DNA of 64,000 bases from Antricoccus suffuscus (GTDB lineage Bacteria > Actinomycetota > Actinomycetes > Mycobacteriales > Antricoccaceae). A model generated the notes under the pieces. The model had not been told where the DNA came from. It did no database searches and saw only the letters and a list, made by a program, of their open reading frames with translations. The translations under genes and the position numbers were made by a program. The DNA is taken from assembly GCF_003003235.1 (NCBI RefSeq), contig NZ_PVUE01000003.1, positions 181,150 to 245,149 of the forward strand, given 5' to 3'. This document shows, piece by piece, positions 47,049 to 64,000 of the stretch. Within the stretch, counting starts at the first letter, position 1. Each line of letters begins with the position of its first letter.

Positions 47049-47055
47049 CCAGCCG

Positions 47056-48048
47056 GTGGTCGGGCCTCCGCCCGCGGTCGCGGCCGTCCGGGTCGCCGTA
47101 CGCCGGTGGCTCGAGAATGCCGGCCACGATCAGCCGTATCCGCCCGCCGAATCGTTGTGCGTGGCCGTCTCCGGTGGGGCCGACTCGCTGGCGCTCCTAA
47201 CCGCGACAATCTTCGAGGCGGGCAAACTCGGCCTCGAGGTCGATGCGCTGAGCGTCGACCATCAGCTGCAGGACGGTTCCGCGGCGCGGGCCGCACAAGT
47301 TGCGGACCTGGCTCGGCGGCTTGGCGCTCGCTCGGCGACGGTGTGCACGGTGACCGTCGCGGGGACGTCCAATATCGAGGCGCAGGCACGAACCGCGCGG
47401 TACGCCGCCCTCGCCGCCCAGTCGCACGGCCGCTGGATCCTGCTCGGGCACACCCTCGACGACCAGGCCGAATCGGTGCTGCTCGGCCTCGGTCGGGGCT
47501 CCGGGCCACGGGCGATCGCCGGCATGTCGGCCCACAACTTCCCTTACGGACGGCCGCTTCTGACGGTACGGCGTGCCCAGACGCGCTCGGCCTGCCGCGA
47601 CGAGGGTCTACCGATTTGGGACGATCCGCATAACGACGACCCCCGGTTCACCCGCGTCCGGATCCGAAACGAGGCGCTGCCGCTGCTGGAGGAGATCCTC
47701 GGCGGGGGAGTGGCCGAGGCGCTCGCCACCACCGCCGAATTGCTGCAGCACGATGACCGGGCCGTCGGCGAGCTCGCGCTGAGGGCGCTCGACGTACTTC
47801 GCGCGGATCCGGTGCCGGATATGGCCTCGGCGCTGCGGGCCCGGGCGCTCGCCGACCACCCGGCCGGGCTACGACGCCGGATCATTAAGCTCTGGCTCGA
47901 AAAAGACGGCGGGTTCGGCTCGCTGACCGGCCCGCACATCGCCGCCGTCGACGCGCTGGTCGCCGACTATCACGGCCAGGGTCCGGCGTACTTGCCCGGC
48001 GGTCGGCGCGTGACGCGCACTCGTGAGACGATCAATCTGACGCGCTAG
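47056..48048 (+). CDS. tilS: tRNA(Ile)-lysidine synthetase
   Basis: PP-loop SGGADS (CVAVSGGADSLAL). Confidence 0.85.
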   Translation: MVGPPPAVAAVRVAVRRWLENAGHDQPYPPAESLCVAVSGGADSLALLTATIFEAGKLGLEVDALSVDHQLQDGSAARAAQVADLARRLGARSATVCTVTVAGTSNIEAQARTARYAALAAQSHGRWILLGHTLDDQAESVLLGLGRGSGPRAIAGMSAHNFPYGRPLLTVRRAQTRSACRDEGLPIWDDPHNDDPRFTRVRIRNEALPLLEEILGGGVAEALATTAELLQHDDRAVGELALRALDVLRADPVPDMASALRARALADHPAGLRRRIIKLWLEKDGGFGSLTGPHIAAVDALVADYHGQGPAYLPGGRRVTRTRETINLTR

Positions 48049-48072
48049 CGACCACTTCAGGAAGGCCCGCCC

Positions 48073-48612
48073 GTGTACGACGGCGAAATCGAAAAGGTAC
48101 TGATCTCCGAGGAAGAGATCGTGCAGAAGACCCGTGAGCTCGCGGAGGTGATCGCCGCGGACTACGCCGACAAGGAAGTCCTCATGATCGGGGTCCTCAA
48201 GGGTGCGGTGATGTTCATGTCGGACTTGGCGCGGGCGTTGCCGTTGCCGGTGCAGCTGGAGTTCATGGCGGTCTCGTCGTACGGCTCGTCCACCAGCTCA
48301 AGCGGGATCGTGCGGATTCTGAAGGACCTGGACAAGGACATCACCGGCAAGGACGTGCTGGTCGTCGAGGACATTATCGATTCCGGCCTGACGCTGTCGT
48401 GGCTGCTGAAGAACCTCGGCGCGCGCAACCCATCGTCCATCGAGGTGTGCACGCTACTGCGCAAGCCGGACGCGATCAAGGTCCCGATCGAGGTGAAATA
48501 TCTCGGCTTCGACATCCCCAACGAGTTCGTCGTCGGCTACGGCCTCGACTACGCCGAGCGTTATCGCGACCTGCGCTATATCGGCACGTTGAAACCCGAG
48601 ATCTACTCCTGA
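48073..48612 (+). CDS. hpt: Hypoxanthine-guanine phosphoribosyltransferase
   Basis: PRPP-binding motif [14 protein letters not shown]. Close match to the mycobacterial Hpt pattern. Confidence 0.9.
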
Positions 48613-48810
48613 ATCGCAGCGGCGTAGGTCACGTCGGAACAACAGTCCTCCGTGATGCGTTGGACCTCTGTTACGAGATGCGTACGTTCACGCGTGTAGG
48701 CGCGGGGACGGCGGGTATCGTCGTAACTTCCAGATCTGCGCGTAGCGCTAGGTCAGGCGTGTGTTGGCAGCCAGACTCAGGAGGTACGGACCGCCCCGGT
48801 CCGCGCAAGC

Positions 48811-50970
48811 ATGAAAAATAAGCGTTTCTACAGATCGCCGTGGTTCTTCATCCTCATCGCGGCCGTCATCGCGCTCGTGCTGCCTTCTGTGCTGTCCGGC
48901 GGCGACAGTTACACCAACGTCAAGACGTCGGTGGCTATTGGGCAGCTTCAGGATGGCAACGCCAAATCCGTCAACATCAAGGACAAAGAGCAGTCCCTCG
49001 ACATCATCCTGAAAAAGGCGATCGACCCAACGGGCGACGGCAAGGAAAAAGTCACCAAGATCACCACGTCGTACCCGTCCAGCGCCGGCACGGAGATCTT
49101 CAACGCGGTCCGTGACTCGCAGGGCGACAGTGCGACGGCGTCCAAGAACACCGGTTTCACGACAACGGTGACTCAACAGAGTGTTCTGGTCTCGATGCTG
49201 CTGAGCATCTTGCCGTTCATCATCATCCTCGGGCTGCTGTTCTTCCTCATGAACTCCATGCAGGGTGGCGGCCGTGGCGTGATGCAGTTCGGCAAGAGCA
49301 AAGCCAAGCTGGTCAGTAAAGACATGCCGAAGACGACTTTCGCCGACGTCGCGGGCGCCGATGAGGCACTTGAAGAGCTTGGCGAGCTCAAAGACTTCCT
49401 GGAGAACCCGGCCAAATTTCAGGCGGTCGGCGCGAAGATCCCCAAAGGCGTGCTGCTGTTCGGCCCGCCGGGTACCGGCAAGACGCTGCTCGCGCGCGCC
49501 GTCGCGGGCGAGGCCGGGGTGCCGTTCTACGCAATCTCCGGTTCGGACTTTGTGGAGATGTTCGTCGGTGTCGGCGCCTCTCGTGTGCGTGACCTTTTCG
49601 AGCAGGCCAAGGCCAACGCGCCGGCCATCATCTTCATCGATGAGATCGACGCCGTCGGCCGTCATCGTGGCGCGGGCATGGGCGGCGGTCACGACGAACG
49701 CGAGCAGACCCTCAACCAGATGCTTGTCGAGATGGACGGCTTCGACGTCAAGGGCGGCGTCATCATGATCGCCGCGACCAACCGTCCGGACATCCTCGAC
49801 CCGGCACTGCTGCGCCCCGGTCGGTTTGACCGGCAGATCGCCGTCGACCGGCCCGACCTCGAGGGTCGCAAGGGGATCTTGCGGGTGCACGCCAAGGGCA
49901 AGCCGATGGCGCCCGGCGTCGACCTCGACACCGTCGCGCGTCGTACCCCCGGCTTCACCGGCGCGGACCTCGCCAACGTCATCAACGAGGCCGCTCTCCT
50001 CACGGCGCGCCACGGGAGTACGTCGATTACCAACGAGACTCTCGAAGAGTCGATCGACCGCGTTATCGCCGGCCCAGAACGCAAGGGTCGCGCGATGAGC
50101 GACAAGGAAAAGAAGCTCACGGCATACCACGAAGGCGGACACGCACTCGTCGCGCAGGCGTTGCCGCACTCCGCGCCGGTGCACAAGGTGACGATCCTGC
50201 CGCGTGGCCGCTCGCTCGGGCACACACTGATCCTGCCGACCGAAGACAAATACACCCAGACGCGCTCAGAGATGATCGACAGTCTCGCCTACATGCTCGG
50301 CGGGCGGGCCGCGGAAGAGCTGATCTTCCACGATCCGATGACCGGTGCGGGCAACGACATCGAGAAGGCGACGAGTGTTGCCCGGTCGATGGTGACCGAA
50401 TACGGCATGAGCGCCAAGCTCGGCGCGGTCAAATACGGCAGCAAAGACTCCGAGCCGTTCCTCGGCCGCGAGATGAGCCACTCGCCGGAATACTCGCAGC
50501 AGGTGGCTTCCGTCATCGACTCCGAGGTCCACGAGTTGATCGAGATAGCGCACGATGAGGCCTACGAGATCCTCACCGCCCATCGCGCCGAGCTTGACCA
50601 GATCGTGTTGGAGCTGATGGCAAACGAGACGCTCAGCGCCGATGACATGAACCGGATCTGCATCAATGTCAAGAAACGCTCGCCCATGGCGCCGTACGTC
50701 GGTTCCTCCGACCGGCGTAAACCGTCCAACCAACCGCCGGTACTCACCCCGGCCGAAATGCGGGCGCAGCAGCAGACCAACGGTCACCCGGTCGATGAAC
50801 TCGCCGCTCGCCCAGGCGGCGGCAGGCACAGCGCGGATCTCGACCATACGGTTGAGCTGCCCGCCGTACCACCGCAGTCGGCGACACCGGAAGCCGAACG
50901 CCCGCAACCGCCCGCTCAGGGCACTCGCCCAGCCGACTGGGTCAATCGGCCGCATCCCGGCGAGGCCTAA
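48811..50970 (+). CDS. ftsH: ATP-dependent zinc metalloprotease FtsH
   Basis: Two TM helices, AAA Walker [12 protein letters not shown], protease HEGGHAL motif, C-terminal Pro-rich tail. Confidence 0.95.
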
Positions 50971-51551
50971 TGGACGCGGCGCGCCCGTTCGACCGTGACC
51001 GTGCCATCGCCGCCGTCCGTGAACTGCTGATCGCGATCGGTGAGGACCCGGACCGCGAGGGTTTGCAGCGCACTCCCCAACGTGTCGCTAACGCCTACGC
51101 CGAAATATTCGCCGGTCTGCATAGCGATCCGAGCGAAGTTCTGCAGACCGTCTTCGACGAGGGCCATCAGGAGATGATCCTGGTCCGCGACATCGAGCTC
51201 TACTCGACCTGCGAGCATCACCTCGTTCCCTTCCACGGCGTCGCGCATGTCGGCTACATCCCCGGCGCTGACGGCAGAATCACCGGACTGTCCAAGCTTG
51301 CCCGCCTCGTCGACCTGCTCGCCAAGCGGCCGCAGGTGCAGGAGCGGCTCACCGGCCAGATCGCCGACGTACTGGTCGGCGAGCTCAAACCGCGTGGCGC
51401 GATCGTCGTAATCGAGTGCGAGCACCTGTGCATGGCGATGCGCGGCATCCGCAAGCCCGGTGCACGCACCGTCACGTCCGCCGTGCGCGGCATCTTCCAG
51501 CACAACCTGTCCACTCGAGCCGAGGCGATGAGCCTCATCGTCGGCAGGTAG
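50970..51551 (+). CDS. folE: GTP cyclohydrolase I
   Basis: FolE motifs ([21 protein letters not shown]). 1-nt overlap TAATG with ftsH. Confidence 0.9.
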
Positions 51552-51554
51552 TCG

Positions 51555-52421
51555 GTGCTCACGAGCGCTCCGGCGTCGCCGCCAGCAGGACTACCGGGCG
51601 GGGCGTCTCTCGGTCGGTGCGCGGTCATCGGCGTACTCAACGTCACCTCGGACTCGTTCTCGGACGGCGGCCGCTACCTCGACGAGTCCACGGCGTTGGC
51701 GCACGCCGAGCAGATGTACGCCGACGGCGCCGACATCATCGACGTTGGTGGCGAGTCCACCCGACCCGGTGCGGCCCGGGTCGCCAGCGGCGACGAGGCC
51801 CGGCGCGTGGTGCCGGTGCTCAAAACCCTTGCCGCGCGGGGGATCCCGACCACGGTTGACACCATGCGCGCCGATGTCGCGCGGGCCGCGCTCGATGCGG
51901 GGTGCACCGCGATCAACGACGTATCGGGCGGCCTCGCCGACCCGGACATGCTGCCGGTCGCCGCGGCGTACGACGTGCCGGTGATCCTGATGCACTGGCG
52001 GGCGCACTCGGCCACGATGCGGGACTTCGCGACGTACGAGGACGTCGTACAGGACGTACGCCGCGAGCTGTCGGCGAGGGTCGATGCTGCACTTGCGGCC
52101 GGAGTCAAGCCAGAGCGGATCGCGATCGACCCGGGACTCGGCTTCGCCAAGACCGCCGAGCACAACTGGCAGCTGCTTCGCCGGCTCGATGCGCTGCTGG
52201 AGCTGGGTTATCCGGTGCTTGTCGCCGCGTCACGCAAGTCTTTTCTCGGATCGTTGTTGGCGGCGCCGGACGGCACTCCACGGCCGCCGGACCAACGCGA
52301 AGACGCGACCGCCGCGATCAGCATGATGTCGGCGATGGTAGGCGCCTGGGCCGTGCGGGTGCACAAGGTGCGCCCGTCGATGGACGCGGTCCGGGTCGCG
52401 GCCGCATGGGCGGGCCGATGA
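51555..52421 (+). CDS. folP: Dihydropteroate synthase
   Basis: Pterin-binding motifs (GVLNVTSDSFSDGG, DIIDVGGESTRPG). Confidence 0.9.
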   Translation: MLTSAPASPPAGLPGGASLGRCAVIGVLNVTSDSFSDGGRYLDESTALAHAEQMYADGADIIDVGGESTRPGAARVASGDEARRVVPVLKTLAARGIPTTVDTMRADVARAALDAGCTAINDVSGGLADPDMLPVAAAYDVPVILMHWRAHSATMRDFATYEDVVQDVRRELSARVDAALAAGVKPERIAIDPGLGFAKTAEHNWQLLRRLDALLELGYPVLVAASRKSFLGSLLAAPDGTPRPPDQREDATAAISMMSAMVGAWAVRVHKVRPSMDAVRVAAAWAGR

Positions 52422-52780
52422 GCGACGAGATACGGCTGCGCGGGCTGACGGTCCGTGGCCACCACGGGGTCTTCGATTTCGAACGACGTGACGGGCAGGA
52501 CTTCGTCATCGACTGCACTCTTGGCCTGGACACGTCGGCCGCGGCGCAGACCGACGACGTGTTGCAGACCGTGCACTACGGCGAGCTGGCCGAAGGGCTT
52601 GCCGGCGTGGTGGCCGGTGAGCCATGCAACCTGATCGAGACGCTCGCTCAGCGGTTGCTGGATGTCGCGCTCGGCTACGACCTGGTCGAGTGGGCGGAGA
52701 TCGTCGTGCACAAGCCGTCCGCGCCGATCCCTTTGACGTTTGCCGACGTGGCGGTCGTCGTACGCCGGGAGAAGTCGTGA
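52418..52780 (+). CDS. folB: Dihydroneopterin aldolase
   Basis: 120 aa, MSDEIRLRGLTVRGHHGVFDFE. ATGA overlap with folP. Confidence 0.85.
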   Translation: MSDEIRLRGLTVRGHHGVFDFERRDGQDFVIDCTLGLDTSAAAQTDDVLQTVHYGELAEGLAGVVAGEPCNLIETLAQRLLDVALGYDLVEWAEIVVHKPSAPIPLTFADVAVVVRREKS

Positions 52781-53298
52781 CTCGCGCCGTACTATCCATT
52801 GGCTCCAACATCGGCGACACCATCGGACACCTGCAGTCGGTGCTGACTGCCGCCGGTTCCGCCGTCCGAGCCGTGTCGTCGGTCTATGAGACCGCGCCGT
52901 GGGGCGGGGTCCAGCAAGATCCCTTCCATAACGCGGTTCTGATCGTTGACGACCCGGCCCGCGACGCTTGGCGTTGGCTCGAGTTCGCGCACTCATGTGA
53001 GGATCGAGCCCGCCGCACGAGGGAGGTGCGATGGGGACCGCGCACGCTCGACGTCGACATCGTCGCTGTGTACGACGGTCCCGCCTCGGTCACCAGCGCC
53101 GATCCGACGCTGACCCTGCCGCACCCGCGGGCACACCAACGCGCGTTCGTGCTCGTCCCGTGGGCAGAAATCGAGCCCGCAGCACGGCTGCCTCAGGGCC
53201 CGGTGGCCGAACTTGTCGGCGCACTTGACCTGGCAGACCCGGAGCAACGCGTCGTACGCCGTAGCGACATACACCTTGAGGTGCGTGGTGGCGCGTAA
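52777..53298 (+). CDS. folK: 2-amino-4-hydroxy-6-hydroxymethyldihydropteridine diphosphokinase (HPPK)
   Basis: LSIGSNIGD ... YETAPWG ... WGPRTLDVDIV. GTGA overlap with folB. Confidence 0.85.
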   Translation: MTRAVLSIGSNIGDTIGHLQSVLTAAGSAVRAVSSVYETAPWGGVQQDPFHNAVLIVDDPARDAWRWLEFAHSCEDRARRTREVRWGPRTLDVDIVAVYDGPASVTSADPTLTLPHPRAHQRAFVLVPWAEIEPAARLPQGPVAELVGALDLADPEQRVVRRSDIHLEVRGGA

Positions 53299-53791
53299 GC
53301 AACTCGCGTCGACGAAGGCGTCCACGCTAGCCACGATCGCCGTGGTGGCGGGCTTGTTGAGCTGGGGGTTGGTGCGCAGCTTCTACGGGTCAATCCCTCC
53401 ATTGGACTGGTACGTCCCGCTGTGGTCTGCGATCCTCGCCGCCGCCGAGTTCGTGTTTGGGCGGCAGCTCAAGCGCCGTATCGACCGCGCGCCCGGTACG
53501 ACTCCGCCGGAACCGTTGGTCGCCGCGCGGGCGCTCGCGTTTGCAAAGGCGAGCTCGATCGTGGGGTCACTGCTGGTCGGCGTGTGGGCCGGAGTCGCGA
53601 TATATACCGGTGGGCAGTGGGGCTATCTACAGTCGGCGAAGGCCGACACCGTCGTTGCGGCGTTCGGGTTGCTGTGCTCGGCCGCGCTCGTAGCCGGCGG
53701 CATATTTCTGGAATACGGCTGTCGCACCCCGCCTCAAAAAGACGACGAGGACGACGACGACCCCGACGGCGACTGGTTGACCCACCGCTAG
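53285..53791 (+). CDS. DUF3180-family membrane protein (conserved downstream of folK in actinobacteria)
   Basis: Four hydrophobic helices and an acidic tail (DDEDDDDPD). GTG start overlapping the folK stop. The long N-terminal extension in the ORF track overlaps folK and was rejected. Confidence 0.6.
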   Translation: MVARKQLASTKASTLATIAVVAGLLSWGLVRSFYGSIPPLDWYVPLWSAILAAAEFVFGRQLKRRIDRAPGTTPPEPLVAARALAFAKASSIVGSLLVGVWAGVAIYTGGQWGYLQSAKADTVVAAFGLLCSAALVAGGIFLEYGCRTPPQKDDEDDDDPDGDWLTHR

Positions 53792-53947
53792 CCCCGGTTG
53801 CGCGCAGGTGAAGCACTCACGAATTCGAGGCTTCGCGCCGGCCTTTTATGCCGAATCGCTATGCAATCTCGGATCCGTCAGGCAGTGTGAGCGGATCTGT
53901 TAATGCCCGCCCTACACAAGTTAAGGGCGGATACGGGAGGTCTATCG

Positions 53948-56425
53948 ATGAGGCAAGGCGTGCGCCGGATCGCGAGTGCCGCGGCAGTGGCAGCGTTATC
54001 AACCGGAACAATTTTCGCATTCGGCGCAGGCACGGCGAACGCCGCGACGAATATCGGCGACGGCGTGCTGGATCCCAGCCTTACTGAGGTCAACATCCTC
54101 AACTTCAATGACTTCCACGGTCGTATTGACGAAAACAACGGCGGCGCGACGGGTCTGGCGTTTGCCGATAACGTCAAGACGTCGATGGCGAAGTACGACC
54201 CTGCGAAGACCCTCCTGCTGTCGGACGGTGACAACATCGGCGCGTCGCCATTTACGTCGATGTCCGACGCGGACAACCCGACACTCGCGTACCTCAACGC
54301 GCTGGGAGTCGAAGCGTCCGCGGTCGGTAACCACGAGTTCGACAAAGGGGTCGATGACCTCACCGGGCGTGTGAGCACTGCGGCGGCGTTCCCATACCTG
54401 GCCGCAAACGTCTACGCCAAAGGTACGACGACCCCGATCCTCGACGAGTATGTCGTGATCGAGAAGAACGGCCTGAAGATCGGCGTCATCGGCGCGGTCA
54501 CCCAGGAGACGCCGGCCCTGACCGGCCCCAACGCGACCGGAACGGTCGATTTCGTCGACCCTGTCGACGCGGTCAATCGGGTCGCGGACCAGCTCACCGA
54601 TGGCAACGAGGCCAACGGCGAGGCCGACGTACTCATCGCCGAATACCACGAAGGTGCGGGCGCCGGTACGCCAGAAGGCGCGACGATCGAGCAGGAGGTC
54701 GCACACGGGGGAGCGTTCGCCAAGATCGTCACGCAGACCAGCGCGGCCGTATCGGCGATCTTCACCGGCCATACGCACAAGGAGTACGCCTGGGACGGGC
54801 CCGTCCCAGGCGAGCCCGGCCAGACTCGGCCGATCCTGCAGGCCGCGTCGTACGCGACCTTCCTTGGGCACGTGCAGCTCGGATTCGACGCCAACAAGAA
54901 GCTTGTCCAGTACAAAGTGGAAAACCTGCCCACCAGCACGGTCGACCAGTCGAAACCCGAAGGCCAGCAGACGATGGCCGACTGGAAAGCGAAATACCCG
55001 GCGATCTGGCAGATCATCGACGCCGCAATCCAGAAGGCCGCGATCATCGGCAAGGAACATCTGGGCAACGTCACCGCCGACATCACCACGGCGTACGCCG
55101 CCGGTAAACGCGACGACCGGGCAAGCGAGTCGACGCTGAGCAATCTGATCGCGCAGTCGATGGTCGACGTACTCAACGACCCGGGGCGCAGCGGCGCCGA
55201 CATCGGTCTAATGAATCCGGGCGGCGTGCGTGCGGAGCTGCTGTTTAACGACGGGGCAGACAACACCGGCGACATCACATATGCCGAAGCCGCCGCCGTC
55301 GTACCGTTCGCCAACACGCTGCAGACAATCGAGCTCACCGGCGCGCAGCTCAAGACGGTGCTCGAGCAGCAGTGGCAGACAAACGAGGATGGCACGATTC
55401 CGTCTCGTCCCTACCTGCAGCTCGGGCTCTCAGACAACCTCACCTACACCTATGACCCTGCCGCGACGCAGGGTGCGCACATCACCTCGGTCTCGCTCGA
55501 CGGCGCGCCGCTCGACCTGACCGCGACTTACACCGTTGTCGGATCGTCGTTTCTCATCGGCGGAGGCGACAACTTCCGCGAGGTCGCGGCCGGTCAGAAC
55601 ATGAAGGACTCCGGTCTGATTGACACGGAGTCGTTCGCGACCTGGATCAAAGACAAGGGCACACTGTCACCGTCGTTCAATCGGCACGCGGTCGTCACCA
55701 ATGGGCAGCCGGATGCGGTCACGATCGGCGAGCAGACCAGTTTTGCCGCCTCCGGTCTGGACCTGACTAGCCTCGGCAGCCCCTCGAACACCGAGCTCAC
55801 GGCGTACGTCGGTGACACCGCGGTGGGGATGTTCTCGGTCAGCGAAGGCGCGGCGACGATCGCATTCACGACGCCCGACGGCATCGCCACCGGTCCGGCA
55901 ACGCTCAAGCTGGTCGCGACCCCGTCCAACACCACGGTGACGTTCCCGGTCACGGTCAACGCGGCCACGCCCATCACGCCACCGACAACCGAGCCACCGA
56001 CAACTCAGCCACCGACAACCGAGCCGCCGGCCCCGCAGCCGACCGTCACGGTCGATCACGCCAAGATCGCCCCCGGCTCGAAGATCACCGTCAAGGCCGT
56101 CAACTTCTCCGCGGCAGTCGGATCGATGGCGCAGGTCGAGCTGCATTCCGATCCGGTCACCATCGGTCAGATGTCCGTCGGCAGCGGCGGCTCGGCGACC
56201 GGGGTGTTCACGATCCCGGCAGCTACGACGCGCGGTGCGCACTCGATTGTCGTCACCGCCGGTGGCGTGACCGCATCGGTGCAGATCACGGTGACAGCCT
56301 CGGGCGGCAAGGGTGGCACCCTCGCGAGCACCGGCGCCGACGTCGCGCCGAAGCTTGAGGTGGCCGCGATCATGTTGGTGCTTGGCGGCGGGCTCACTCT
56401 CGCAGGCCGCCGCCGTAACGGCTAG
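53948..56425 (+). CDS. Secreted bifunctional 5'-nucleotidase / metallophosphoesterase with Pro/Thr linker and LAXTG sortase cell-wall anchor
   Basis: Signal peptide (MRQGVRRIASAAAVA ... ANA), metallophos N-domain (NDFHG, GNHEFD, GHTH), 5'-nucleotidase C-domain, PTTEPPTTQPPTTEPP linker, and C-terminal LASTG plus hydrophobic segment plus RRRNG. ATG 53948 preceded by GGGAGG. Confidence 0.85.
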   Translation: MRQGVRRIASAAAVAALSTGTIFAFGAGTANAATNIGDGVLDPSLTEVNILNFNDFHGRIDENNGGATGLAFADNVKTSMAKYDPAKTLLLSDGDNIGASPFTSMSDADNPTLAYLNALGVEASAVGNHEFDKGVDDLTGRVSTAAAFPYLAANVYAKGTTTPILDEYVVIEKNGLKIGVIGAVTQETPALTGPNATGTVDFVDPVDAVNRVADQLTDGNEANGEADVLIAEYHEGAGAGTPEGATIEQEVAHGGAFAKIVTQTSAAVSAIFTGHTHKEYAWDGPVPGEPGQTRPILQAASYATFLGHVQLGFDANKKLVQYKVENLPTSTVDQSKPEGQQTMADWKAKYPAIWQIIDAAIQKAAIIGKEHLGNVTADITTAYAAGKRDDRASESTLSNLIAQSMVDVLNDPGRSGADIGLMNPGGVRAELLFNDGADNTGDITYAEAAAVVPFANTLQTIELTGAQLKTVLEQQWQTNEDGTIPSRPYLQLGLSDNLTYTYDPAATQGAHITSVSLDGAPLDLTATYTVVGSSFLIGGGDNFREVAAGQNMKDSGLIDTESFATWIKDKGTLSPSFNRHAVVTNGQPDAVTIGEQTSFAASGLDLTSLGSPSNTELTAYVGDTAVGMFSVSEGAATIAFTTPDGIATGPATLKLVATPSNTTVTFPVTVNAATPITPPTTEPPTTQPPTTEPPAPQPTVTVDHAKIAPGSKITVKAVNFSAAVGSMAQVELHSDPVTIGQMSVGSGGSATGVFTIPAATTRGAHSIVVTAGGVTASVQITVTASGGKGGTLASTGADVAPKLEVAAIMLVLGGGLTLAGRRRNG

Positions 56426-58077: not shown

Positions 58078-58673
58078 TGTCTTCCAGCGCCCCGGCTTCG
58101 TCGGGTACGACGGTGAGTGCGACGACCGGCCGGCCGATGCGCGCAGACGCGCGTCGCAACTACGAATTGCTGGTCGAGGCGGCCAAGGCAGTGCTCGTCG
58201 AAAACGACGGCGACGCTCCGCTCGAGGACATCGCGCGTCGAGCAGGCGTCGGGATCGGCACCCTATACCGGCATTTTCCTAAGCGGCTCGATCTTCTCGA
58301 GGCCGTCTACCGCGAGGAAGTCGACGCGCTCGCGCACAGCAAAGACCAGCTGGCCGCGGACGTCTCGCCGTGGGAGGGGCTCGACCGATGGCTGCATCTG
58401 CTCGTCGGTTACGTCGCTACCAAGCGGGTGCTCTTTCAAGAACTCGTCGATGCGATCGGCAAGGAATCCGAGCTGTTGACGCACTCGCGGGCGGTCATGA
58501 TGGATTCGACGGCTGCGATGCTCAAGGCCGCCCAGGATGCCGGCGTCGCACGCGCCGACGTGCGACCGGATGACCTGGTCCGCATTGTCGGTGGCTGCAC
58601 GATGATGCCGCACGTCGCACCGGACCAGCAAGAACGCATGGTGCAGATCGTGCTGGACGGCGTACGCATCTAG
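58078..58673 (+). CDS. TetR-family transcriptional regulator
   Basis: TetR HTH (LEDIARRAGVGIGTLYRHFPKR). ATG 58078 with AAGGAGG SD. Confidence 0.85.
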
Positions 58674-58674
58674 A

Positions 58675-58760
58675 CCCGCGATCCGTCACGTAATTCGCGC
58701 GATCCGTCACTTACGACCCGTGATCCGTCGCTTATGCCCCGTGATCGGTCGCTCCTGTCC
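58675..58760. repeat. Four tandem imperfect ~21-bp direct repeats (consensus CGYGATCCGTCRCTTAYGMC) immediately after the tetR stop
   Basis: Read directly: units at 58675-58697, 58698-58717, 58718-58738 and 58739-58760. Confidence 0.6.
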
Positions 58761-58940
58761 CATGCGTCCGACCTTCGCCGACTTTCAAACGGGCTGACCA
58801 CAGGCGGTACCGCTTCGGCCTACCTCCACCGTCCCGTCACCGATAATCGCCCGCGCGAGTACAAATGTGCCGACCCGCATCAAGGTCCGGACATTCTTGC
58901 TGCGTATCAGCACATTTGTGCGAATGTCGTTCAGCGACCA

Positions 58941-58969
58941 AAAAGCCCCGGGCCTCTAAAGCTCCCGGG
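58941..58969 (-). terminator. Rho-independent terminator for the YceI-like gene
   Basis: On the minus strand: stem CCCGGG / CCCGGG with an 11-nt loop, followed by GCTTTTTGG. Confidence 0.65.
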
Positions 58970-58997
58970 ACTTTCTGTGTAGCTGTATGACGATGCG

Positions 58998-59549
58998 TTA
59001 GGCGTTGGCCTCGACCTTCGCCGGATGAGCCTCGACGTCGAGAGTGATGGTCACCTTGTCGCCGACGACCACCCCGCCGTCTTCCATCGGAATCTGGAAC
59101 TTGATGCCGAAGTCGGAGCGCAGGATCTCGGTGGACGCCTCGAACCCGGCGGTCTCACCCGCCACGCCGCCGAACTCGGTCTTGAGCTCGACCGGCTTGG
59201 TGATTCCGTTGATGGTCAGATCGCCGGTAACCACCCAGTCGTCGCCCTTTGGCGCGATGCTGGTCGACGCGAAGCCGATCGTGTTGTGGTTATCGAGGTC
59301 GAAGAAGTCCGCAGAGCGCAGGTGTCCGTCGCGCTGCTCGTTGCCGGTGTCGACCGACGGGACGTCAATGGTGACCTTGACCGAGGAATCCTCGACCTGG
59401 TCGGCGACGGTGATGGCGCCGGAGAACGTCTTGAACGTGCCCTTCACCTTGCTGACCATCATGTGGCGGACGCTGAAACCGATCGCGGTGTGTGCGGTGT
59501 CGATGTTCCAGACGCCGGGGGTGAGGTTGAGCGTGGATGCTGCGGTCAT
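58998..59549 (-). CDS. YceI-family periplasmic / polyisoprenoid-binding-like protein
   Basis: YceI beta-barrel pattern (WNIDTAHTAIGFSVRHMMVSKVKGTF ... TGDLTINGITKPV). Confidence 0.85.
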   Translation of the reverse strand: MTAASTLNLTPGVWNIDTAHTAIGFSVRHMMVSKVKGTFKTFSGAITVADQVEDSSVKVTIDVPSVDTGNEQRDGHLRSADFFDLDNHNTIGFASTSIAPKGDDWVVTGDLTINGITKPVELKTEFGGVAGETAGFEASTEILRSDFGIKFQIPMEDGGVVVGDKVTITLDVEAHPAKVEANA

Positions 59550-59714
59550 CGTTGAATGCTCCAGTCGGGATTCGGCCCAGGCCTGCCCGGGTCGGGTAAT
59601 TTGTACGTCGGACGGAGGGTGTCGGCTAGTGTTGACCGACTTCGTCCGCGAGGCATGAATTGAAGTTACAACTATTAAGTTGAAATGTCAACCAAAGACA
59701 ACTAGAGTGGTGTC

Positions 59715-60209
59715 ATGACCGAGACCAAATGGCTAAGTTCCGAAGAGCAGCTAGGCTGGCGCGGATTTCTGCTTGCCTCCCGTCTGATCATGGACCAGCT
59801 CAACCGTGAGTTGCAGGACGCGCACGACTTGTCGCTCACTGACTACGCCATACTTGTCCGTCTCAGCGAAGAGCAAGACCACCAACTGCGGATGACCGAG
59901 TTGGCCGCGTCGAGCGGCCTGTCCAAGAGTCGGCTGTCCCACCAGATGAAGCGGCTCGAGCAACGTGGCCTAACATCGCGTTCGGTCTGCCCGGACGATG
60001 CGCGCGGCACCAACGCGGAGCTCACCAAGGCTGGTTACAAGGCATTGCAAGATGCCAGCCACACCCATGTCGCCGGTGTGCGCGAGCACTTGCTTGACCA
60101 TTTCGACCCGGACCAAGTGCGCGAGCTGGCTCGATGGACCGAGGAAGTCGTACATCATCTTGATCAAGATGGAAGGTCCGGGCCGCTGCTGCCGTCCTGT
60201 CAGCCATAG
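59715..60209 (+). CDS. MarR-family transcriptional regulator
   Basis: Winged HTH (LSLTDYAILVRLSEEQDHQLRMTELAASSGLSKSRLSHQMKRLEQRGL). Confidence 0.85.
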   Translation: MTETKWLSSEEQLGWRGFLLASRLIMDQLNRELQDAHDLSLTDYAILVRLSEEQDHQLRMTELAASSGLSKSRLSHQMKRLEQRGLTSRSVCPDDARGTNAELTKAGYKALQDASHTHVAGVREHLLDHFDPDQVRELARWTEEVVHHLDQDGRSGPLLPSCQP

Positions 60210-60224
60210 GGCAAAATCGGTTGC

Positions 60225-60845
60225 ATGCCACAACTGACGCCCACCCGTGCGTGGGAGAGGATGCTCGAAGGTAACGCCCGTTTCGTGAGCGGCGACCCCG
60301 CCCACCCGGATCAGGATGTCGCGAAGCGAGAAGAGCTCACCGGCGGCCAGAATCCGTTCGCCTTGGTGTTTGGCTGCGCCGACTCGCGCGTCGCCGCGGA
60401 GATCATTTTTGACCAGGGCCTCGGCGACCTATTCGTCGTACGCACGGCAGGGCACGTCATCGACCCCGGTGTACTCGGTTCTATCGAGTTCGGTGTCGAA
60501 CTTCTGAATATCCCCCTGATCATCGTTCTCGGGCACGATTCCTGCGGCGCGATTGGTGCAACGCTTGCGACGACCAAATCAGGTGACATGCCTGGCGGCT
60601 TTATCCGCGACATCGTCGAACGAGTGATGCCGAGTGCCATCGCGGCGCGCTCCAAGGCAGGCGGTGCCGAGGTTGGGTCCGAAGAAGTTGTCTCCGAGCA
60701 CGTCATGCAGTCGGCCAAGCTACTCGCAGATCGGTCGCGGATCATCTCCAACGCTATCGATTCCGGGAAACTCGCGATCGTCGGCGCCACATACAAACTG
60801 CATGACGGCGAAGCGCGCGTCGAAGGTGTCGTCGGCAATCTCTGA
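60225..60845 (+). CDS. Beta-class carbonic anhydrase
   Basis: Zinc ligands in CADSR and HDSCGA motifs. Starts 15 nt after the marR stop. Confidence 0.9.
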   Translation: MPQLTPTRAWERMLEGNARFVSGDPAHPDQDVAKREELTGGQNPFALVFGCADSRVAAEIIFDQGLGDLFVVRTAGHVIDPGVLGSIEFGVELLNIPLIIVLGHDSCGAIGATLATTKSGDMPGGFIRDIVERVMPSAIAARSKAGGAEVGSEEVVSEHVMQSAKLLADRSRIISNAIDSGKLAIVGATYKLHDGEARVEGVVGNL

Positions 60846-60860
60846 CCACGACTGTGAGGC

Positions 60861-62069
60861 CTAAGCCTCGATGAGTACGGCGGCTCCTAGCCCGACTCCG
60901 ATACATGCGGCCGCCACGCCGTAGCCACCGCCGCGACGCCGAAGCTCGCGCGCGCAGTCGATGATGACCCGCGGCATCGAGGCGCCCAACGGGTGGCCGA
61001 TCGCGATCGCGCCGCCGTTCGGGTTGACGTCAGTGTCGGCGACCTTGGCCACCTCGGGCATCAATCGCAGGCAAGACAGCACCATCGACGCGAAAGCCTC
61101 GTTGATCTCCCATACTTTGATGTCGGAAGCGGAGAGCGCGGCCTTGTCCAAGAGCTTGCCTATCGCATCGACGGGTGCGATCGAGAACTGATCGGGCCGG
61201 CGAGCCGTCGTCACCGATGCGTGCAGCCTCGCGATCGGCTCCATTCCCTGTGCGGCAGCGGTCTTCTCGTGCATCATCAGCGTCGCGATCGCGCCGTCGT
61301 TGATCGGGGACGAGTTGCCCGCCGTACCGATGCCGTCGTCCGAGAACGCCGGGCGCAGCCGCCGCAACACGTCCATCGAGGTCGCGTCCCGGATCGACTC
61401 GTCTCGCTCGACGAGCCCGTCCCGTGCCTGGATCGGCAGCACGAAGTCGTGATGCAGCTTGTCTCGCCATGCCGCGGCAGCGCGCTGGTGTGAGCGAGTC
61501 GCCCACTCGTCCATCTCGGTGCGGGTGACGCCAAGTTTGACGGCCTCGATTTCTGCGCACCGGCCGAGCGAGGCCACCCACTCACGCGGGAAACGCGGAT
61601 TGACCAGCCGCCAACCGACCGTCGTACCGACGAGATTCATGGCGCGGGGCAACTCCTCGTCGGGCCGGGGAAGGACATACGGCGCACGGCTCATCGACTC
61701 GACACCGCCTGCGATGACGGTATCGAGCTCGCCAACCGCGATCGCTCGCGCGGCTTGGATCATCGCCTCGCCACCAGAACCACAGAGGCGGTTGACCGTC
61801 ACCCCGGGGACGGTGTGCGGCAGGTCCGCGATCAGCGCGGCCATCCGGGCCACGTTGCGGTTGTCTTCGCCCGCTCCATTGGTGTCACCCAGGATGACAT
61901 CGTCGATGCTTGCCGGATCCACATCGTCATTGCGCCGGCAAAGTTCGGCGATCGGCATGGCCGCGAAGTCATCGGTGCGGATATGCGACAGGCCGCCGCG
62001 ATACTTGCCGAACGGCGTGCGCACCGCGTCGATGATCACGGCACTGGACAATGGGAATCGAATAGCCAT
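60861..62069 (-). CDS. Acetyl-CoA C-acyltransferase (thiolase II)
   Basis: Thiolase motifs (VIIDAVRTPFGK, NRLCGSG, GNSSPINDGA, C-terminal GHPLGASMPR and CIGVGLGAA). Confidence 0.9.
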   Translation of the reverse strand: MAIRFPLSSAVIIDAVRTPFGKYRGGLSHIRTDDFAAMPIAELCRRNDDVDPASIDDVILGDTNGAGEDNRNVARMAALIADLPHTVPGVTVNRLCGSGGEAMIQAARAIAVGELDTVIAGGVESMSRAPYVLPRPDEELPRAMNLVGTTVGWRLVNPRFPREWVASLGRCAEIEAVKLGVTRTEMDEWATRSHQRAAAAWRDKLHHDFVLPIQARDGLVERDESIRDATSMDVLRRLRPAFSDDGIGTAGNSSPINDGAIATLMMHEKTAAAQGMEPIARLHASVTTARRPDQFSIAPVDAIGKLLDKAALSASDIKVWEINEAFASMVLSCLRLMPEVAKVADTDVNPNGGAIAIGHPLGASMPRVIIDCARELRRRGGGYGVAAACIGVGLGAAVLIEA

Positions 62070-62097
62070 ACCGCGACGATACAAAGGGGTTCGGAAC

Positions 62098-62601
62098 GTG
62101 ACTGAGGCATCCCAACGACCGGGTCGCCACCCGGCCAGCCACCACTACGAGGCCACGGTTGTGTGGACCGGCAACCGCGGCACCGGCACGTCGGCGTACC
62201 GCGAGTTCGGGCGTGAACACGACATCATCTCCGCGGGACGCCCGACACTCGCCGGCTCCGCAGATCCGGCCTTCCGCGGAGATCCGGAGCGATGGAATCC
62301 GGAGGACTTCCTGGTCGCCGCGCTTGCCGAGTGCCACATGCTGACATTTCTGCACCTCGCGGCGCTCGGCGGCGTGATTGTGACCGAATACGTCGACACC
62401 GCCACCGGAACGATGGAGATGAACAACGACGGTAGCGGGCAGTTCGCCGAGGTGACGCTGCATCCGGTCGTGACCGTGCAGGACGAGTCGATGCGCGAGA
62501 AGGCGATGTCACTGCACCACCCCGCGGGCGAGATGTGTTTCATTGCGCGGTCCGTCAACTTCCCGGTCAACCACGACGGGACCGTGGTCGTTACGTCGTA
62601 A
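62098..62601 (+). CDS. OsmC/Ohr-family peroxiredoxin
   Basis: OsmC pattern with the two conserved Cys contexts (LVAALAECHMLTF ... EMCFIARSVNFPV). GTG 62098 with AAAGGGG SD. Only the 3' part of ORF 61459..62601 is coding. Confidence 0.8.
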   Translation: MTEASQRPGRHPASHHYEATVVWTGNRGTGTSAYREFGREHDIISAGRPTLAGSADPAFRGDPERWNPEDFLVAALAECHMLTFLHLAALGGVIVTEYVDTATGTMEMNNDGSGQFAEVTLHPVVTVQDESMREKAMSLHHPAGEMCFIARSVNFPVNHDGTVVVTS

Positions 62602-63409
62602 TGACGTCGAGCCCCAGGTCGTCCTGAGCGGCCTCCACATAGAGATCGACCTTTTCGCCGGTCGCGGTGTAGACGGCATGCTGATCGAAGTGTGCGTTGA
62701 GCAGTACGACGAGCTCGTCGACCGACTTCGGCGCAGCGGCCTGCTGGGTGAGGGCCCGGGCGATCAGACCGCGACTGTGTTTGGCCATGTGGGATACGAC
62801 CGTGCGTACGCCCGCCTGCTCTCGGAAAACCCGCACCGGGACGTATCGCTTGGTGAGAGTGCCGCTGGGCCTCCACGATGCGGCGTACGTCGAGGACCGG
62901 CAGTCGATGATCAGGCCGCGCGCCGCGGCATCGGTCATCGGCTCGTCGAGCATCGGCTTCCAGAATCTCGCGAGTCCGCCGAGCCTCGGCAGTGACACCG
63001 ACATCGATAGCCGGTACGCCGGAATCCGGTCGGTCAGCCGCACCGCACCCCAGAGTGCCGAGGAGACGACGACCTGCCGGGCGGCGCGTCGTTTAGCGGC
63101 AGGGTCGAGGTCGGCGTACCCGAACGCGTCGAACAGTACGCCGGTATAGACCTTCCAGGCTGGCGCCGCGGGGGCGTCGAGTAGGTCGGCGTTGGCCGCG
63201 ACGAGCTCGCCAAGTCCGGCCGGGACCTTGAGCACCTTCAGTGCGTCTGCGCCGCCGGACACCTCGATGAGCGACTTGGCCACCTCGTGCCGCGCGGATG
63301 TCAGTTCTGGGAACGACAGCGAACTCACATCGACCGGTTTCCCGGTCGATGCTTGGGTTTTACCCTCGGACGGCGGTAGCAAGATCAGCACTGGCCCATC
63401 ATCTCGCAC
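62591..63409 (-). CDS. YaaA-family peroxide stress protein (UPF0246 / DUF328)
   Basis: N-terminal LILLPPSEGKT and overall UPF0246 pattern. Converges on the OsmC gene. Confidence 0.8.
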   Translation of the reverse strand: MRDDGPVLILLPPSEGKTQASTGKPVDVSSLSFPELTSARHEVAKSLIEVSGGADALKVLKVPAGLGELVAANADLLDAPAAPAWKVYTGVLFDAFGYADLDPAAKRRAARQVVVSSALWGAVRLTDRIPAYRLSMSVSLPRLGGLARFWKPMLDEPMTDAAARGLIIDCRSSTYAASWRPSGTLTKRYVPVRVFREQAGVRTVVSHMAKHSRGLIARALTQQAAAPKSVDELVVLLNAHFDQHAVYTATGEKVDLYVEAAQDDLGLDVITT

Positions 63410-63490
63410 CTCCGGCCGTCCGTCACGAATGTCCGGCCGTCCGTCGTGCTGACGTTGTGCTCGGTATCGTCACTGACCGGAATGGTCTAA

Positions 63491-64000
63491 CGTCGTCGCC
63501 ATGGAGATCTCCCCGTCGTCGCGACTCGCCCGTCAACTCGGCTCGGTATTGGAACCGATCGTCGGACAGGTGTACTTCTCGCCCGAAGCACACGCGAACT
63601 ATGTGGCGCTCGGGTTCGACGCCAGCCGCGGAGACGCGAACGGCGTTGCGCTGCCGGACGGTCCGTCGTACTTCGCCAGCCGAGGAAGCGTGCTGGGCCA
63701 GGTCTCCGGCGAGGTGATCGCGGCGGGATTCGGTGTGTTCAGCCCGGCTGTCGTCGTACCGTCGGTGAAACTGGCGTGGACCCGGACCGACGCAGCCACA
63801 ATCCGCGCCGCTCGCGCCGAGGGCGCCCTCGCCCAACTCCGCCGCCTCCTGGGTGAGCACCCCGACGGCACAGACCGTGGACTCGAACTGCTCGCCCGCG
63901 CGGCCGCCGTACTGTCGATCACGGGTCGGCCGATGGCGGCGGGGATCAGGTCTTTGCCGTTACCGTCCGATCCGCTGGCGGCGCTCTGGCACGTGGGCGA
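63491..64000 (+). CDS. Conserved actinobacterial hypothetical protein (3'-truncated by window edge)
   Basis: Open frame from ATG 63491 to the window end with protein-like composition (LEPIVGQVYFSPEAHANYVALGFD ...). No recognised domain. Confidence 0.45.

What the first reader, a model, noticed from the sequence alone, without database searches (positions are those of the whole stretch)
58998..63409. Stress-defence cluster: YceI, MarR-beta-carbonic anhydrase operon, thiolase, OsmC, YaaA
MarR is followed 15 nt downstream by a beta-carbonic anhydrase, an unusual operon partner, with a divergent YceI gene. About 2 kb away, OsmC/Ohr-type peroxiredoxin and YaaA (peroxide-stress) genes converge. OsmC starts only 28 bp from the divergent thiolase start. 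The YceI-MarR intergenic region (59590-59714) is AT-rich with a near-palindrome GTTGAaAT gTCAAC (59679-59692) and repeated AAGTT motifs, a candidate MarR operator. This suggests a redox or organic-peroxide-responsive regulon that includes CO2/bicarbonate metabolism.
Basis: partly seen in the sequence, partly recalled or inferred. Interest (0 to 1): 0.5.

Follow-up and report, generated by a model that had tools for sequence, protein, structure and literature searches.

The report
MarR repressor controlling YceI and carbonic anhydrase
An actinobacterial MarR-type repressor most likely switches off its own gene, a co-transcribed carbonic anhydrase and a neighbouring lipid-binding YceI gene through two conserved DNA boxes; the nearby "peroxide" genes look like unrelated neighbours, so this is a tidy but fairly ordinary regulatory unit.

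Summary
All six genes and the stated spacings are real. It matches exactly the measured operator consensus (TTnAAnnnTCAA) of SCO3205, one of the two closest solved homologues of this MarR. It is the only such match in the 64 kb window. It is conserved upstream of marR in all 12 related loci examined.

A second box lies 20 bp upstream. It is kept in relatives that have yceI and is absent from the one lineage without yceI.

The boxes overlap a probable leaderless marR promoter and a divergent yceI promoter. marR is followed directly by the CanB-type beta-carbonic anhydrase in every close relative (gaps of -4 to about 60 nt). Three more distant actinobacteria instead place this enzyme after a fumarase gene.

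The wider reading, a peroxide-responsive regulon that includes OsmC and YaaA, is not supported:
- Thiolase and OsmC occur only in the window and its nearest relative.
- No box lies near thiolase, OsmC or yaaA.
- The MarR lacks the OhrR-type N-terminal cysteine.

An invariant wing cysteine (Cys92) keeps redox sensing possible. The effector is unknown. I rate this a new member of a known kind, of modest interest.

The parts
58998..59549 (-). yceI: YceI-family lipocalin-like protein, 183 aa, with no room for a signal peptide; the divergent target gene
   Evidence: PF04264 E 1.8e-52; the domain covers residues 14-174. It lies divergent to marR in L001, L012, L013, L014/15, L016, L023-L026 and L006.
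58940..58971 (-). Terminator-like hairpin after yceI: a CCCGGG/CCCGGG stem with an 11-nt loop, followed by TTTTT
   Evidence: Read directly. The automatic scan missed it because the loop exceeds 8 nt. Inference only.
59658..59673 (+). Box A, AATTGAAGTTACAACT (core TTGAAGTTACAA, 59660-59671); one mismatch to TTnAAnnnTCAA; overlaps the proposed yceI -10
   Evidence: (23.9 bits with a matrix built from relatives only). It is conserved where yceI is present and absent in L009/L011, which lack yceI.
59678..59693 (+). Box B, AGTTGAAATGTCAACC (core TTGAAATGTCAA, 59680-59691); exact match to the SCO3205 operator consensus; overlaps the -35 of marR and the -35 of yceI
   Evidence: searches (the only match in 64 kb; conserved in 12 of 12 related loci; 28.3 bits), PMC3737563 (consensus).
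59680..59708 (+). Proposed marR-CA promoter: -35 TTGAAA (59680-59685), 17 nt, -10 TAGAGT (59703-59708). The ATG at 59715 is 7 nt after the -10, so the mRNA is probably leaderless.
   Evidence: the only promoter-like site in 58900-63600. In eight of the other lineages a TAnnnT sits 17-18 nt after TTGAAn, with the start codon 6-8 nt further on; L001 and L013 are ambiguous. The transcription start site is inferred, not mapped.
59663..59691 (-). Proposed yceI promoter on the minus strand: -35 TTGACA (59691 to 59686), 17 nt, -10 TAACTT (59668 to 59663)
   Evidence: Read. The same TTGAyr-17/18-TAnnTT layout is seen in L001, L013 and L014. It falls below the scan's threshold. Inference only.
59715..60209 (+). 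marR: MarR-family regulator of the SCO3205/AbsC subfamily, 164 aa
   Evidence: PF01047. PDB 3ZMD and 3ZPL, E about 1e-29. 40% identity to SCO3205, with DNA-contact residues, the Trp15/His118 pocket and Cys92 conserved.
60225..60845 (+). CanB-type beta-carbonic anhydrase, 206 aa, 15 nt after marR; probably co-transcribed with it
   Evidence: PF00484. PDB 1YM3/2A5V, E 4e-69, with the CxDxR and HxxC zinc-site motifs aligned. It lies directly downstream of marR in all 9 orthologous lineages.
60861..62069 (-). Thiolase (acetyl-CoA C-acyltransferase). A neighbour, not part of the MarR unit; a lineage-specific gene between CA and yaaA.
   Evidence: TIGR01930, 400 bits against a cut-off of 240. Found only in the window and L023. 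No box nearby.
62098..62601 (+). OsmC-family protein with both family cysteines, of an unassigned subfamily. A neighbour, not part of the MarR unit.
   Evidence: PF02566. Best solved match is 2D7V (VCA0330), E 6e-15. Below the NCBIfam subfamily cut-offs. Unrelated context in L032.
62591..63409 (-). yaaA (DUF328/YaaA). A conserved syntenic neighbour, convergent to the CA side, with no evidence of shared control.
   Evidence: PF03883 E 9e-37. Present downstream in L001, L013, L025, L014, L009/L011 and L023; absent in L012. No box nearby.

Best explanation
The functional unit is yceI <-> marR-CA (58998-60845), not the six-gene cluster.

The proposed mechanism:
- The MarR is a homodimeric winged-helix repressor of the SCO3205/AbsC subfamily. 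It binds two pseudopalindromic boxes set 20 bp apart in the AT-rich core of the 165-bp intergenic region.
- Box B (59678-59693) covers the -35 of a probably leaderless marR-CA transcript. On the other strand it covers the -35 of the yceI promoter.
- Box A (59658-59673) covers the yceI -10.
- Bound MarR therefore represses its own gene, the co-transcribed CanB-type beta-carbonic anhydrase, and yceI.
- Repression is presumably relieved in one of two ways. An effector, most likely a carboxylate-bearing aromatic or lipophilic compound, may occupy the conserved Trp15/His118 pocket. Alternatively, the invariant Cys92 in the wing may be oxidised.

Thiolase, OsmC and YaaA are neighbours without detectable regulatory linkage.

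Shown here:
- the gene identities;
- the box sequences and their conservation;
- the conserved marR-CA adjacency;
- the retention of DNA-contact residues.

Inferred:
- binding of MarR to the boxes;
- the promoter positions and the leaderless start;
- co-transcription of marR and CA;
- repression;
- the nature of the effector.
For: **The regulator**
- The closest solved relatives are AbsC (3ZMD) and the SCO3205-DNA complex (3ZPL), with E about 1e-29.
- The window MarR is 40% identical to SCO3205.
- It keeps Ser72 and His76, which correspond to the base-contacting Ser73 and His77. It also keeps R59, M60, T61, R73, S75, R80, R89, R31 and D27, and has Lys71 in place of Arg72 (residue roles from PMC3737563).

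**The boxes**
- The SCO3205 operator consensus TTnAAnnnTCAA, defined by SPR footprinting and a crystal structure (PMC3737563), matches box B exactly. This is its only occurrence in the window.
- Box A has one mismatch and lies 20 bp upstream.
- Box B is present upstream of marR in all 12 related loci. It sits about 35 nt from the start codon wherever that codon is well defined.
- Box A is conserved only where yceI is present.
- Invariant intergenic columns are confined to the boxes.
- A matrix built from relatives only recovers both window boxes at 28 and 24 bits.
- SCO3205 likewise has two operators in a divergent intergenic region, one of them 21 nt upstream of its own gene. It also binds an operator 20 nt upstream of a YceI-like gene, sco5533 (PMC3737563).

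**The operon**
- marR-CA adjacency holds in 9 of 9 orthologous lineages, with gaps of -4 to about 60 nt and no terminator between the genes.
- Meanwhile the flanking genes changed. yceI was lost in L009. A deacetylase gene was inserted in L009 and L014. Thiolase and OsmC are present only in the window and L023.

**The promoter**
- The only promoter-like site in the region is TTGAAA-17-TAGAGT, which ends 7 nt before the marR ATG.
Against: - No binding, transcript or expression data exist for this organism.
- The promoter calls are consensus matches. The yceI promoter falls below the scan threshold.
- The relatives with CA downstream of marR are all at least 70% identical in MarR. Part of the synteny may therefore be shared ancestry rather than selection.
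- At 58-61% MarR identity (L016, L026) yceI is retained, but the downstream gene gave no CA match. CA is therefore a late recruit and could be a passenger.
- Box A departs from the consensus at a position (T14) that mattered for SCO3205 binding.
- The effector is unknown.
- CA may also have an undetected internal promoter, particularly in relatives with 47-60 nt gaps.
Confidence: 0.65

Rival explanations
1. The whole cluster (YceI, MarR-CA, thiolase, OsmC, YaaA) is one peroxide- or redox-responsive regulon under this MarR, acting like OhrR.
For: OsmC-family and YaaA-family genes lie within 2.5 kb. yaaA is a recurrent neighbour of the CA gene in relatives. Cys92 is invariant, and the equivalent SCO3205 Cys93 showed density suggesting oxidation (PMC3737563).
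Against: - No box-like site lies anywhere in 60861-63409. The best score outside the intergenic region is 15 bits, inside a gene at 1745.
- Thiolase and OsmC are absent from 5 of the 7 lineages whose sequence reaches yaaA.
- yaaA is convergent and is separated from CA by different genes in different relatives.
- The MarR has no N-terminal cysteine and scores 25 bits against an OhrR cut-off of 200.
- The OsmC homologue in L032 has an unrelated context.
Confidence: 0.07
2. The MarR regulates only itself and yceI. The carbonic anhydrase is a housekeeping gene that happens to lie downstream. It is expressed mainly from its own promoter or by constitutive read-through, and the pairing has no physiological logic.
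For: - The yceI-marR pairing reaches further in evolution (58-61% MarR homologues L016 and L026, and 36% in a Dormiibacterota genome, L006) than the marR-CA pairing does.
- SCO3205 has a YceI-like target but no CA target (PMC3737563).
- The CA sits in the same conserved fol-ftsH chromosomal neighbourhood as M. tuberculosis canB. The window half of this comes; the M. tuberculosis gene order is from my own knowledge.
- Two relatives have gaps of 47-60 nt, enough room for a promoter.
Against: - In six lineages the gap is -4 to 15 nt, including a 4-nt stop/start overlap in L001, which leaves no room for a promoter.
- No promoter-like or terminator-like site lies between the genes.
- The lineage that lost yceI and box A kept box B, marR and CA together.
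Confidence: 0.2
3. Same architecture, but the input signal is oxidation of the single invariant Cys92 rather than a small-molecule ligand. The output would be protection against membrane-lipid or quinone oxidation (YceI), with CA as an accessory.
For: - Cys92 is invariant in 23 orthologues.
- It aligns with SCO3205 Cys93, which showed residual density 'indicative of potential oxidation', and with a Cys in AbsC.
- YceI lipocalins bind isoprenoid quinones and take part in peroxyl-radical detoxification in Gram-negative bacteria (PMC9113575).
Against: - The Trp/His carboxylate-binding pair is equally invariant.
- A second cysteine is not conserved, because Cys162 varies.
- The crystal observation was not modelled or tested.
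- No peroxidase gene is under detectable control of the boxes.
Confidence: 0.15

Closest known systems
SCO3205 of Streptomyces coelicolor (PDB 3ZPL), with its paralogues AbsC (SCO5405, PDB 3ZMD) and SCO7727
   Same: - MarR fold, with 40% identity over 147 aa.
- The same recognition-helix base contacts (Ser/His) and most of the phosphate contacts.
- The same Trp/His ligand-pocket pair and the same wing cysteine.
- An extended C-terminal tail.
- The same operator consensus, TTnAAnnnTCAA.
- Two operators in a divergent intergenic region, one about 21 nt upstream of the regulator's own start codon.
- A YceI-like gene among the bound targets (sco5533).
   Different: - It is a paralogue-level relative, not an orthologue.
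- The divergent partner here is yceI itself, not an extradiol-dioxygenase-like gene (sco3204).
- A CanB-type carbonic anhydrase is fused into the regulator's operon, which has not been reported for SCO3205 or AbsC.
- Arg72 is Lys and Tyr44 is Asp.
- The C-terminal tail has its own conserved motif, DGRSGPLLP.
OhrR/Ohr organic-hydroperoxide system (MarR-family redox sensor plus Ohr peroxidase)
   Same: A MarR-family regulator, with an OsmC/Ohr-superfamily protein carrying two cysteines in the vicinity.
   Different: - No N-terminal sensing cysteine.
- The OhrR model score is far below its cut-off.
- The OsmC-like gene is not adjacent, carries no operator, is not conserved in relatives and is not of the Ohr subfamily.
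CanB (Rv3588c) beta-carbonic anhydrase of Mycobacterium tuberculosis (PDB 1YM3, 2A5V)
   Same: - Aligns over essentially the full length, E 4e-69.
- The zinc-site Cys/His/Cys and the Asp-Arg dyad motifs are aligned.
- It lies in the same conserved chromosomal neighbourhood near ftsH-folE-folP-folB-folK.
   Different: Here it lies 15 nt downstream of a MarR gene. In three other actinobacterial lineages sampled it follows a class-I fumarase gene. From my own knowledge of the M. tuberculosis gene order, no MarR precedes canB there.
E. coli YceI and Burkholderia BcnA lipocalins (yceJ/lcoA cytochrome b561-yceI operons)
   Same: A full-length YceI domain.
   Different: No signal peptide, so the protein is probably cytoplasmic. 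No cytochrome b561 partner. It is paired with a MarR regulator instead.

Membership tests
SCO3205/AbsC subfamily of MarR regulators | Significant full-length sequence similarity to SCO3205 and AbsC | tested here: met
   phmmer E 1e-29 and 3e-29 to 3ZMD and 3ZPL. The next solved MarR scores 1e-08. 40% identity over 147 aa.
SCO3205/AbsC subfamily of MarR regulators | Recognition-helix and wing residues that contact DNA in the 3ZPL complex | tested here: met
   Ser72, His76, Arg73, Ser75, Arg80, Arg59, Met60, Thr61, Arg89, Arg31 and Asp27 are identical, and Lys71 replaces Arg72. Tyr44, Lys97 and Gln100 are not conserved (roles from PMC3737563).
SCO3205/AbsC subfamily of MarR regulators | Operator of the form TTnAAnnnTCAA upstream of its own gene, paired with a second site for the divergent gene | tested here: met
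   Box B is an exact match and box A has one mismatch. Both are conserved in orthologous loci. Physical binding was not tested.
SCO3205/AbsC subfamily of MarR regulators | Trp/His pair that hydrogen-bonds the carboxylate of salicylate in AbsC | tested here: met
   Trp15 and His118 align with SCO3205 Trp16/His119 and are invariant in 23 orthologues. Ligand binding was not tested.
OhrR-type peroxide-sensing MarR | Reactive cysteine near the N-terminus (helix alpha-1) | tested here: not met
   The first cysteine is Cys92, and there is none in residues 1-91.
OhrR-type peroxide-sensing MarR | Score above the curated OhrR model cut-off, and an adjacent ohr gene | tested here: not met
   NF052638 scores 25.2 bits against a cut-off of 200. 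The nearest OsmC-family gene is 1.9 kb away across two other genes and is absent in most relatives.
Beta-carbonic anhydrase, CanB (Rv3588c) type | Pro_CA domain with Cys-x-Asp-x-Arg and His-x-x-Cys zinc-site motifs | tested here: met
   PF00484, 132 bits. GCADSR and GHDSCG align identically with 1YM3/2A5V. Enzyme activity was not tested.
OsmC/Ohr peroxiredoxin superfamily | OsmC domain with the two conserved cysteines | tested here: met
   PF02566, 53.6 bits. The cysteines in AECHML and EMCFIA align with those of 2D7V.
OsmC/Ohr peroxiredoxin superfamily | Assignment to the OsmC or SACOL1771 peroxiredoxin subfamilies | tested here: not met
   TIGR03562 scores 19.3 bits against a cut-off of 85.8. 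TIGR03563 scores 28.5 bits against 166.
YceI family | Full-length YceI lipocalin-like domain | tested here: met
   PF04264, 178 bits, covering profile positions 1-150 of 150. Ligand unknown.
YaaA (DUF328) peroxide-stress protein | H2O2_YaaD domain | tested here: met
   PF03883, 127 bits. NF002545 scores 270 bits, below its equivalog cut-off of 324. Peroxide induction was not tested.

The most novel reading that the evidence does not exclude
The MarR might sense inorganic carbon, pH or a carboxylated metabolite through its conserved Trp/His carboxylate-binding pocket. It would then feed back on the cell's CanB carbonic anhydrase, together with a cytoplasmic isoprenoid-binding YceI. That would be a one-component CO2/bicarbonate or alkaline-stress switch in a cave- and soil-dwelling actinobacterial lineage. 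No MarR-family bicarbonate sensor, and no MarR-controlled carbonic anhydrase, turned up in the literature searched.
Probability: 0.06. Interest if true: 0.6.

Novelty: new member of a known kind. Interest (0 to 1): 0.3.

Why it matters
If it is confirmed, three things follow:
- It extends the experimentally defined SCO3205/AbsC operator code to another actinobacterial order. The nearest named genome is an Antricoccus MAG (order Geodermatophilales).
- It gives a second, independent link between this MarR subfamily and YceI lipocalins, whose physiological role in Gram-positive bacteria is unknown.
- It shows an otherwise housekeeping-type carbonic anhydrase placed under a ligand-responsive repressor.

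It also gives a concrete, cheap experimental handle: two 16-bp boxes, one protein and three output genes. That could be used to find the still-unknown effector of this widespread subfamily. It does not open a new class of mechanism.

Tried and rejected
- **Rfam** search of 58600-64000 at E<=1 gave only a chance snoRNA hit, so no riboswitch or sRNA was found.
- **Folding the putative 107-nt yceI leader** gave z = -0.98, which is not significant.
- **A weight-matrix scan** for extra MarR boxes near thiolase, OsmC and yaaA found none. The weak hit at 1745-1760 lies inside a response-regulator gene and was dismissed.
- **MarR homologues at about 50% identity** (Actinophytocola, Actinokineospora, Rhodococcus and others) have unrelated neighbours. 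They look like paralogues and were not used for footprinting.
- **The genome-collection scan** with the single MarR protein returned only 8 loci. **The metagenome scan** returned 5. The footprint therefore rests on 12 loci, about 9 of them orthologous lineages.
- **Literature searches** for a MarR-carbonic anhydrase operon found nothing relevant.
- **A zinc-sensing (AdcR-like) reading** was considered because CA is a zinc enzyme and AbsC is linked to zinc. The AdcR model scores 19.8 bits against a cut-off of 175, and no conserved metal-site motif was evident, so I did not pursue it.
- **The OsmC context check** in Phytoactinopolyspora showed no thiolase, MarR, CA or YaaA nearby.

Full report
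**1. What is in the sequence**

| Gene | Coordinates | Strand | Evidence |
|---|---|---|---|
| YceI | 58998-59549 | - | PF04264; domain spans residues 14-174, so there is no signal peptide |
| MarR | 59715-60209 | + | PF01047 |
| Beta-carbonic anhydrase (CA) | 60225-60845 | + | PF00484 |
| Thiolase | 60861-62069 | - | TIGR01930, 400 bits |
| OsmC-family protein | 62098-62601 | + | GTG start |
| YaaA | 62591-63409 | - | PF03883 |

- The marR-CA gap is 15 nt.
- The thiolase and OsmC start codons are 28 bp apart.
- OsmC and yaaA overlap tail to tail by 11 nt.
- GTTGAAATGTCAAC sits at 59679-59692.
- Only 59650-59714 is truly AT-rich, with GC 0.37 against 0.655 for the window. 59590-59649 has GC 0.60.
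- Upstream lie a TetR/MFS efflux pair and the conserved actinobacterial block tilS-hpt-ftsH-folE-folP-folB-folK-DUF3180-5'-nucleotidase.
- The nearest named genome is an Antricoccus MAG, with 78% MarR identity.

**2. The regulator and its operator**

The closest solved relatives of the MarR are AbsC (3ZMD) and the SCO3205-DNA complex (3ZPL) of Streptomyces coelicolor, at E about 1e-29. All other solved MarR proteins score 1e-08 or worse.

The SCO3205 study (PMC3737563) reported the following:
- It defined two operators in the divergent sco3204-sco3205 intergenic region by SPR footprinting and crystallography.
- The consensus is TTnAAnnnTCAA.
- One operator lies 21 nt upstream of sco3205.
- A further bound operator lies 20 nt upstream of sco5533, a YceI-like gene.

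In the window:
It is the only one in 64 kb on either strand, against 0.21 expected. As a 16-mer it ends 21 nt before the marR ATG.
- A second copy with one mismatch, TTGAAGTTACAA (59660-59671), lies 20 bp upstream.
- The window protein is 40% identical to SCO3205. It keeps the base-contacting Ser and His, nearly all the phosphate contacts, the Trp/His pair that binds the carboxylate of salicylate in AbsC, and the wing cysteine.

**3. Comparative evidence**

Genome, metagenome and protein-index searches gave 12 related loci, about 9 of them orthologous lineages with at least 70% MarR identity.

- Box B, AGTTGAAnnnTCAAC, is present upstream of marR in all of them. It sits about 35 nt before the start codon wherever that codon is well defined.
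- Box A, GTTGAAnnTACAA, is conserved in the lineages that have a divergent yceI. It is missing in the one lineage (L009-L011) where yceI has been replaced by a co-directional gene.
- In a 7-lineage alignment of the intergenic region, 23 of 25 invariant columns fall within the two boxes. The rest has diverged in both sequence and length, from 83 to 171 bp.
- A weight matrix built without the window's own sites scores the window boxes at 28.3 and 23.9 bits. The next-best hit for each box matrix is 10.4 and 13.9 bits, and 15.4 bits with the combined matrix. No such hit lies in 60861-63409.

**4. Promoter architecture (inferred)**

- The only promoter-like site in 58900-63600 is TTGAAA (59680-59685), 17 nt, TAGAGT (59703-59708). 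The marR ATG lies 7 nt further on. This implies a leaderless transcript.
- In eight of the other lineages a TAnnnT element lies at the same distance, with the start codon 6-8 nt beyond it. L001 and L013 are ambiguous.
- On the opposite strand, TTGACA (59691 to 59686), 17 nt, TAACTT (59668 to 59663) forms a plausible yceI promoter. Its -35 lies in box B and its -10 in box A. The same layout is seen in L001, L013 and L014.
- This dual coding would explain why box A carries TACAA rather than TCAAC.
- A Shine-Dalgarno sequence (GGAG) precedes yceI, and a hairpin plus T-run follows it.

**5. The carbonic anhydrase link**

- The enzyme aligns over essentially its full length with M. tuberculosis CanB (Rv3588c), E 4e-69, with the zinc-site motifs intact.
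- It directly follows marR in every orthologous lineage, with gaps of -4, 4, 9, 14, 15, 15, 47 and about 55-60 nt. No terminator-like or promoter-like site lies between the genes.
- The surrounding genes have changed meanwhile, and the lineage that lost yceI kept marR-CA.
- The pairing is clade-specific. MarR homologues at 58-61% identity keep yceI, but their downstream gene gave no CA match.
- In three other actinobacterial lineages the CanB-type gene follows a class-I fumarase gene.
The yceI-marR pair is the older core. It is even seen in a Dormiibacterota genome at 36% MarR identity.

**6. The supposed peroxide genes**

- Thiolase and OsmC lie between CA and yaaA only in the window and its 96% relative L023. 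In L001, L013 and L025, CA and yaaA converge directly. In L009 and L014 a deacetylase gene intervenes.
- None of these genes has a box.
- The OsmC-family protein has both family cysteines. However, it resembles VCA0330 (2D7V) rather than Ohr or OsmC proper, and it misses the subfamily cut-offs. A 65% homologue in Phytoactinopolyspora has unrelated neighbours.
- The MarR has no N-terminal cysteine and is far below the OhrR model cut-off.
- The cluster-wide peroxide regulon is therefore unsupported.

Two observations leave a narrower redox idea open. Cys92 is invariant in 23 orthologues, and its SCO3205 equivalent showed possible oxidation in the crystal. In addition, YceI lipocalins bind isoprenoid quinones and act in lipid-peroxyl detoxification in Gram-negative bacteria (PMC9113575).

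**7. Verdict**

- The best-supported reading is a SCO3205-type MarR that autoregulates a leaderless marR-CA operon and represses the divergent yceI through two boxes. The effector is unknown and is probably a carboxylate-bearing small molecule.
- This is a new member of a known kind with one unusual output gene.
- Interest is modest at 0.3.
- The most novel reading still allowed is inorganic-carbon or pH sensing by the MarR. It is speculative, at about 6%.
- No literature on a MarR-controlled carbonic anhydrase was found.

Noticed in passing
window 58677-58739: Three tandem 21-nt repeats (CGCGATCCGTCAC plus 8 variable nt) lie directly after the TetR stop codon, in the 324-bp non-coding spacer between the TetR gene and yceI. 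The 13-nt core occurs without mismatch only here in the window.
   Followed up: partly
window 58861-58919: A 24-nt imperfect inverted repeat (ACAAATGTGCCGACCCGCATCAAG / CTTGCTGCGTATCAGCACATTTGT, 83% complementary, 11 nt between the arms) lies in the same spacer. Its function is unknown. The spacer is only about 105 bp in relative L024.
   Followed up: no
loci L028, L029, L030: In three other actinobacterial lineages (Nostocoides and two MAGs) the CanB-type carbonic anhydrase lies immediately downstream of a class-I fumarase gene (Fumerase/Fumerase_C). This may be a conserved fumarase-CA pair.
   Followed up: no
window 45969-56425: The conserved actinobacterial core block: Zincin_2 peptidase, tilS, hpt, ftsH, folE, folP, folB, folK, DUF3180 and a 5'-nucleotidase-like protein (folB sits in the 52421-52624 interval and was inferred from relatives). 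This places the MarR-CA unit in the canB-type chromosomal neighbourhood.
   Followed up: partly
window 59609-59648: An imperfect inverted repeat (CGGACGGAG / CTTCGTCCG) encloses GTCGG...CCGAC inside the putative yceI 5' leader, and GTCGGCTA is conserved in L023 and L025. The leader does not fold significantly better than shuffled sequence (z = -0.98).
   Followed up: partly
window 1745-1760: The best off-target match to the MarR box matrix (CGTCGAATTGACAATC, 15 bits) lies inside a response-regulator gene at 1439-2221. It is probably chance.
   Followed up: partly
locus L009 5496-5555: In the relative that lacks yceI, the 60-nt marR-CA spacer contains a GC-rich imperfect hairpin (CGCGATCCCGA...TCGGGTGATCGCG) that is absent from the other lineages. 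It could be an attenuator or a processing site.
   Followed up: no
MarR residues 150-160 (window 60162-60194): A C-terminal motif, D-x-[DE]-G-R-S-G-P-L-L-P, is almost invariant in the 23 MarR orthologues. In SCO3205 the C-terminal tail helps to position DNA-contacting arginines, but its sequence there differs.
   Followed up: no
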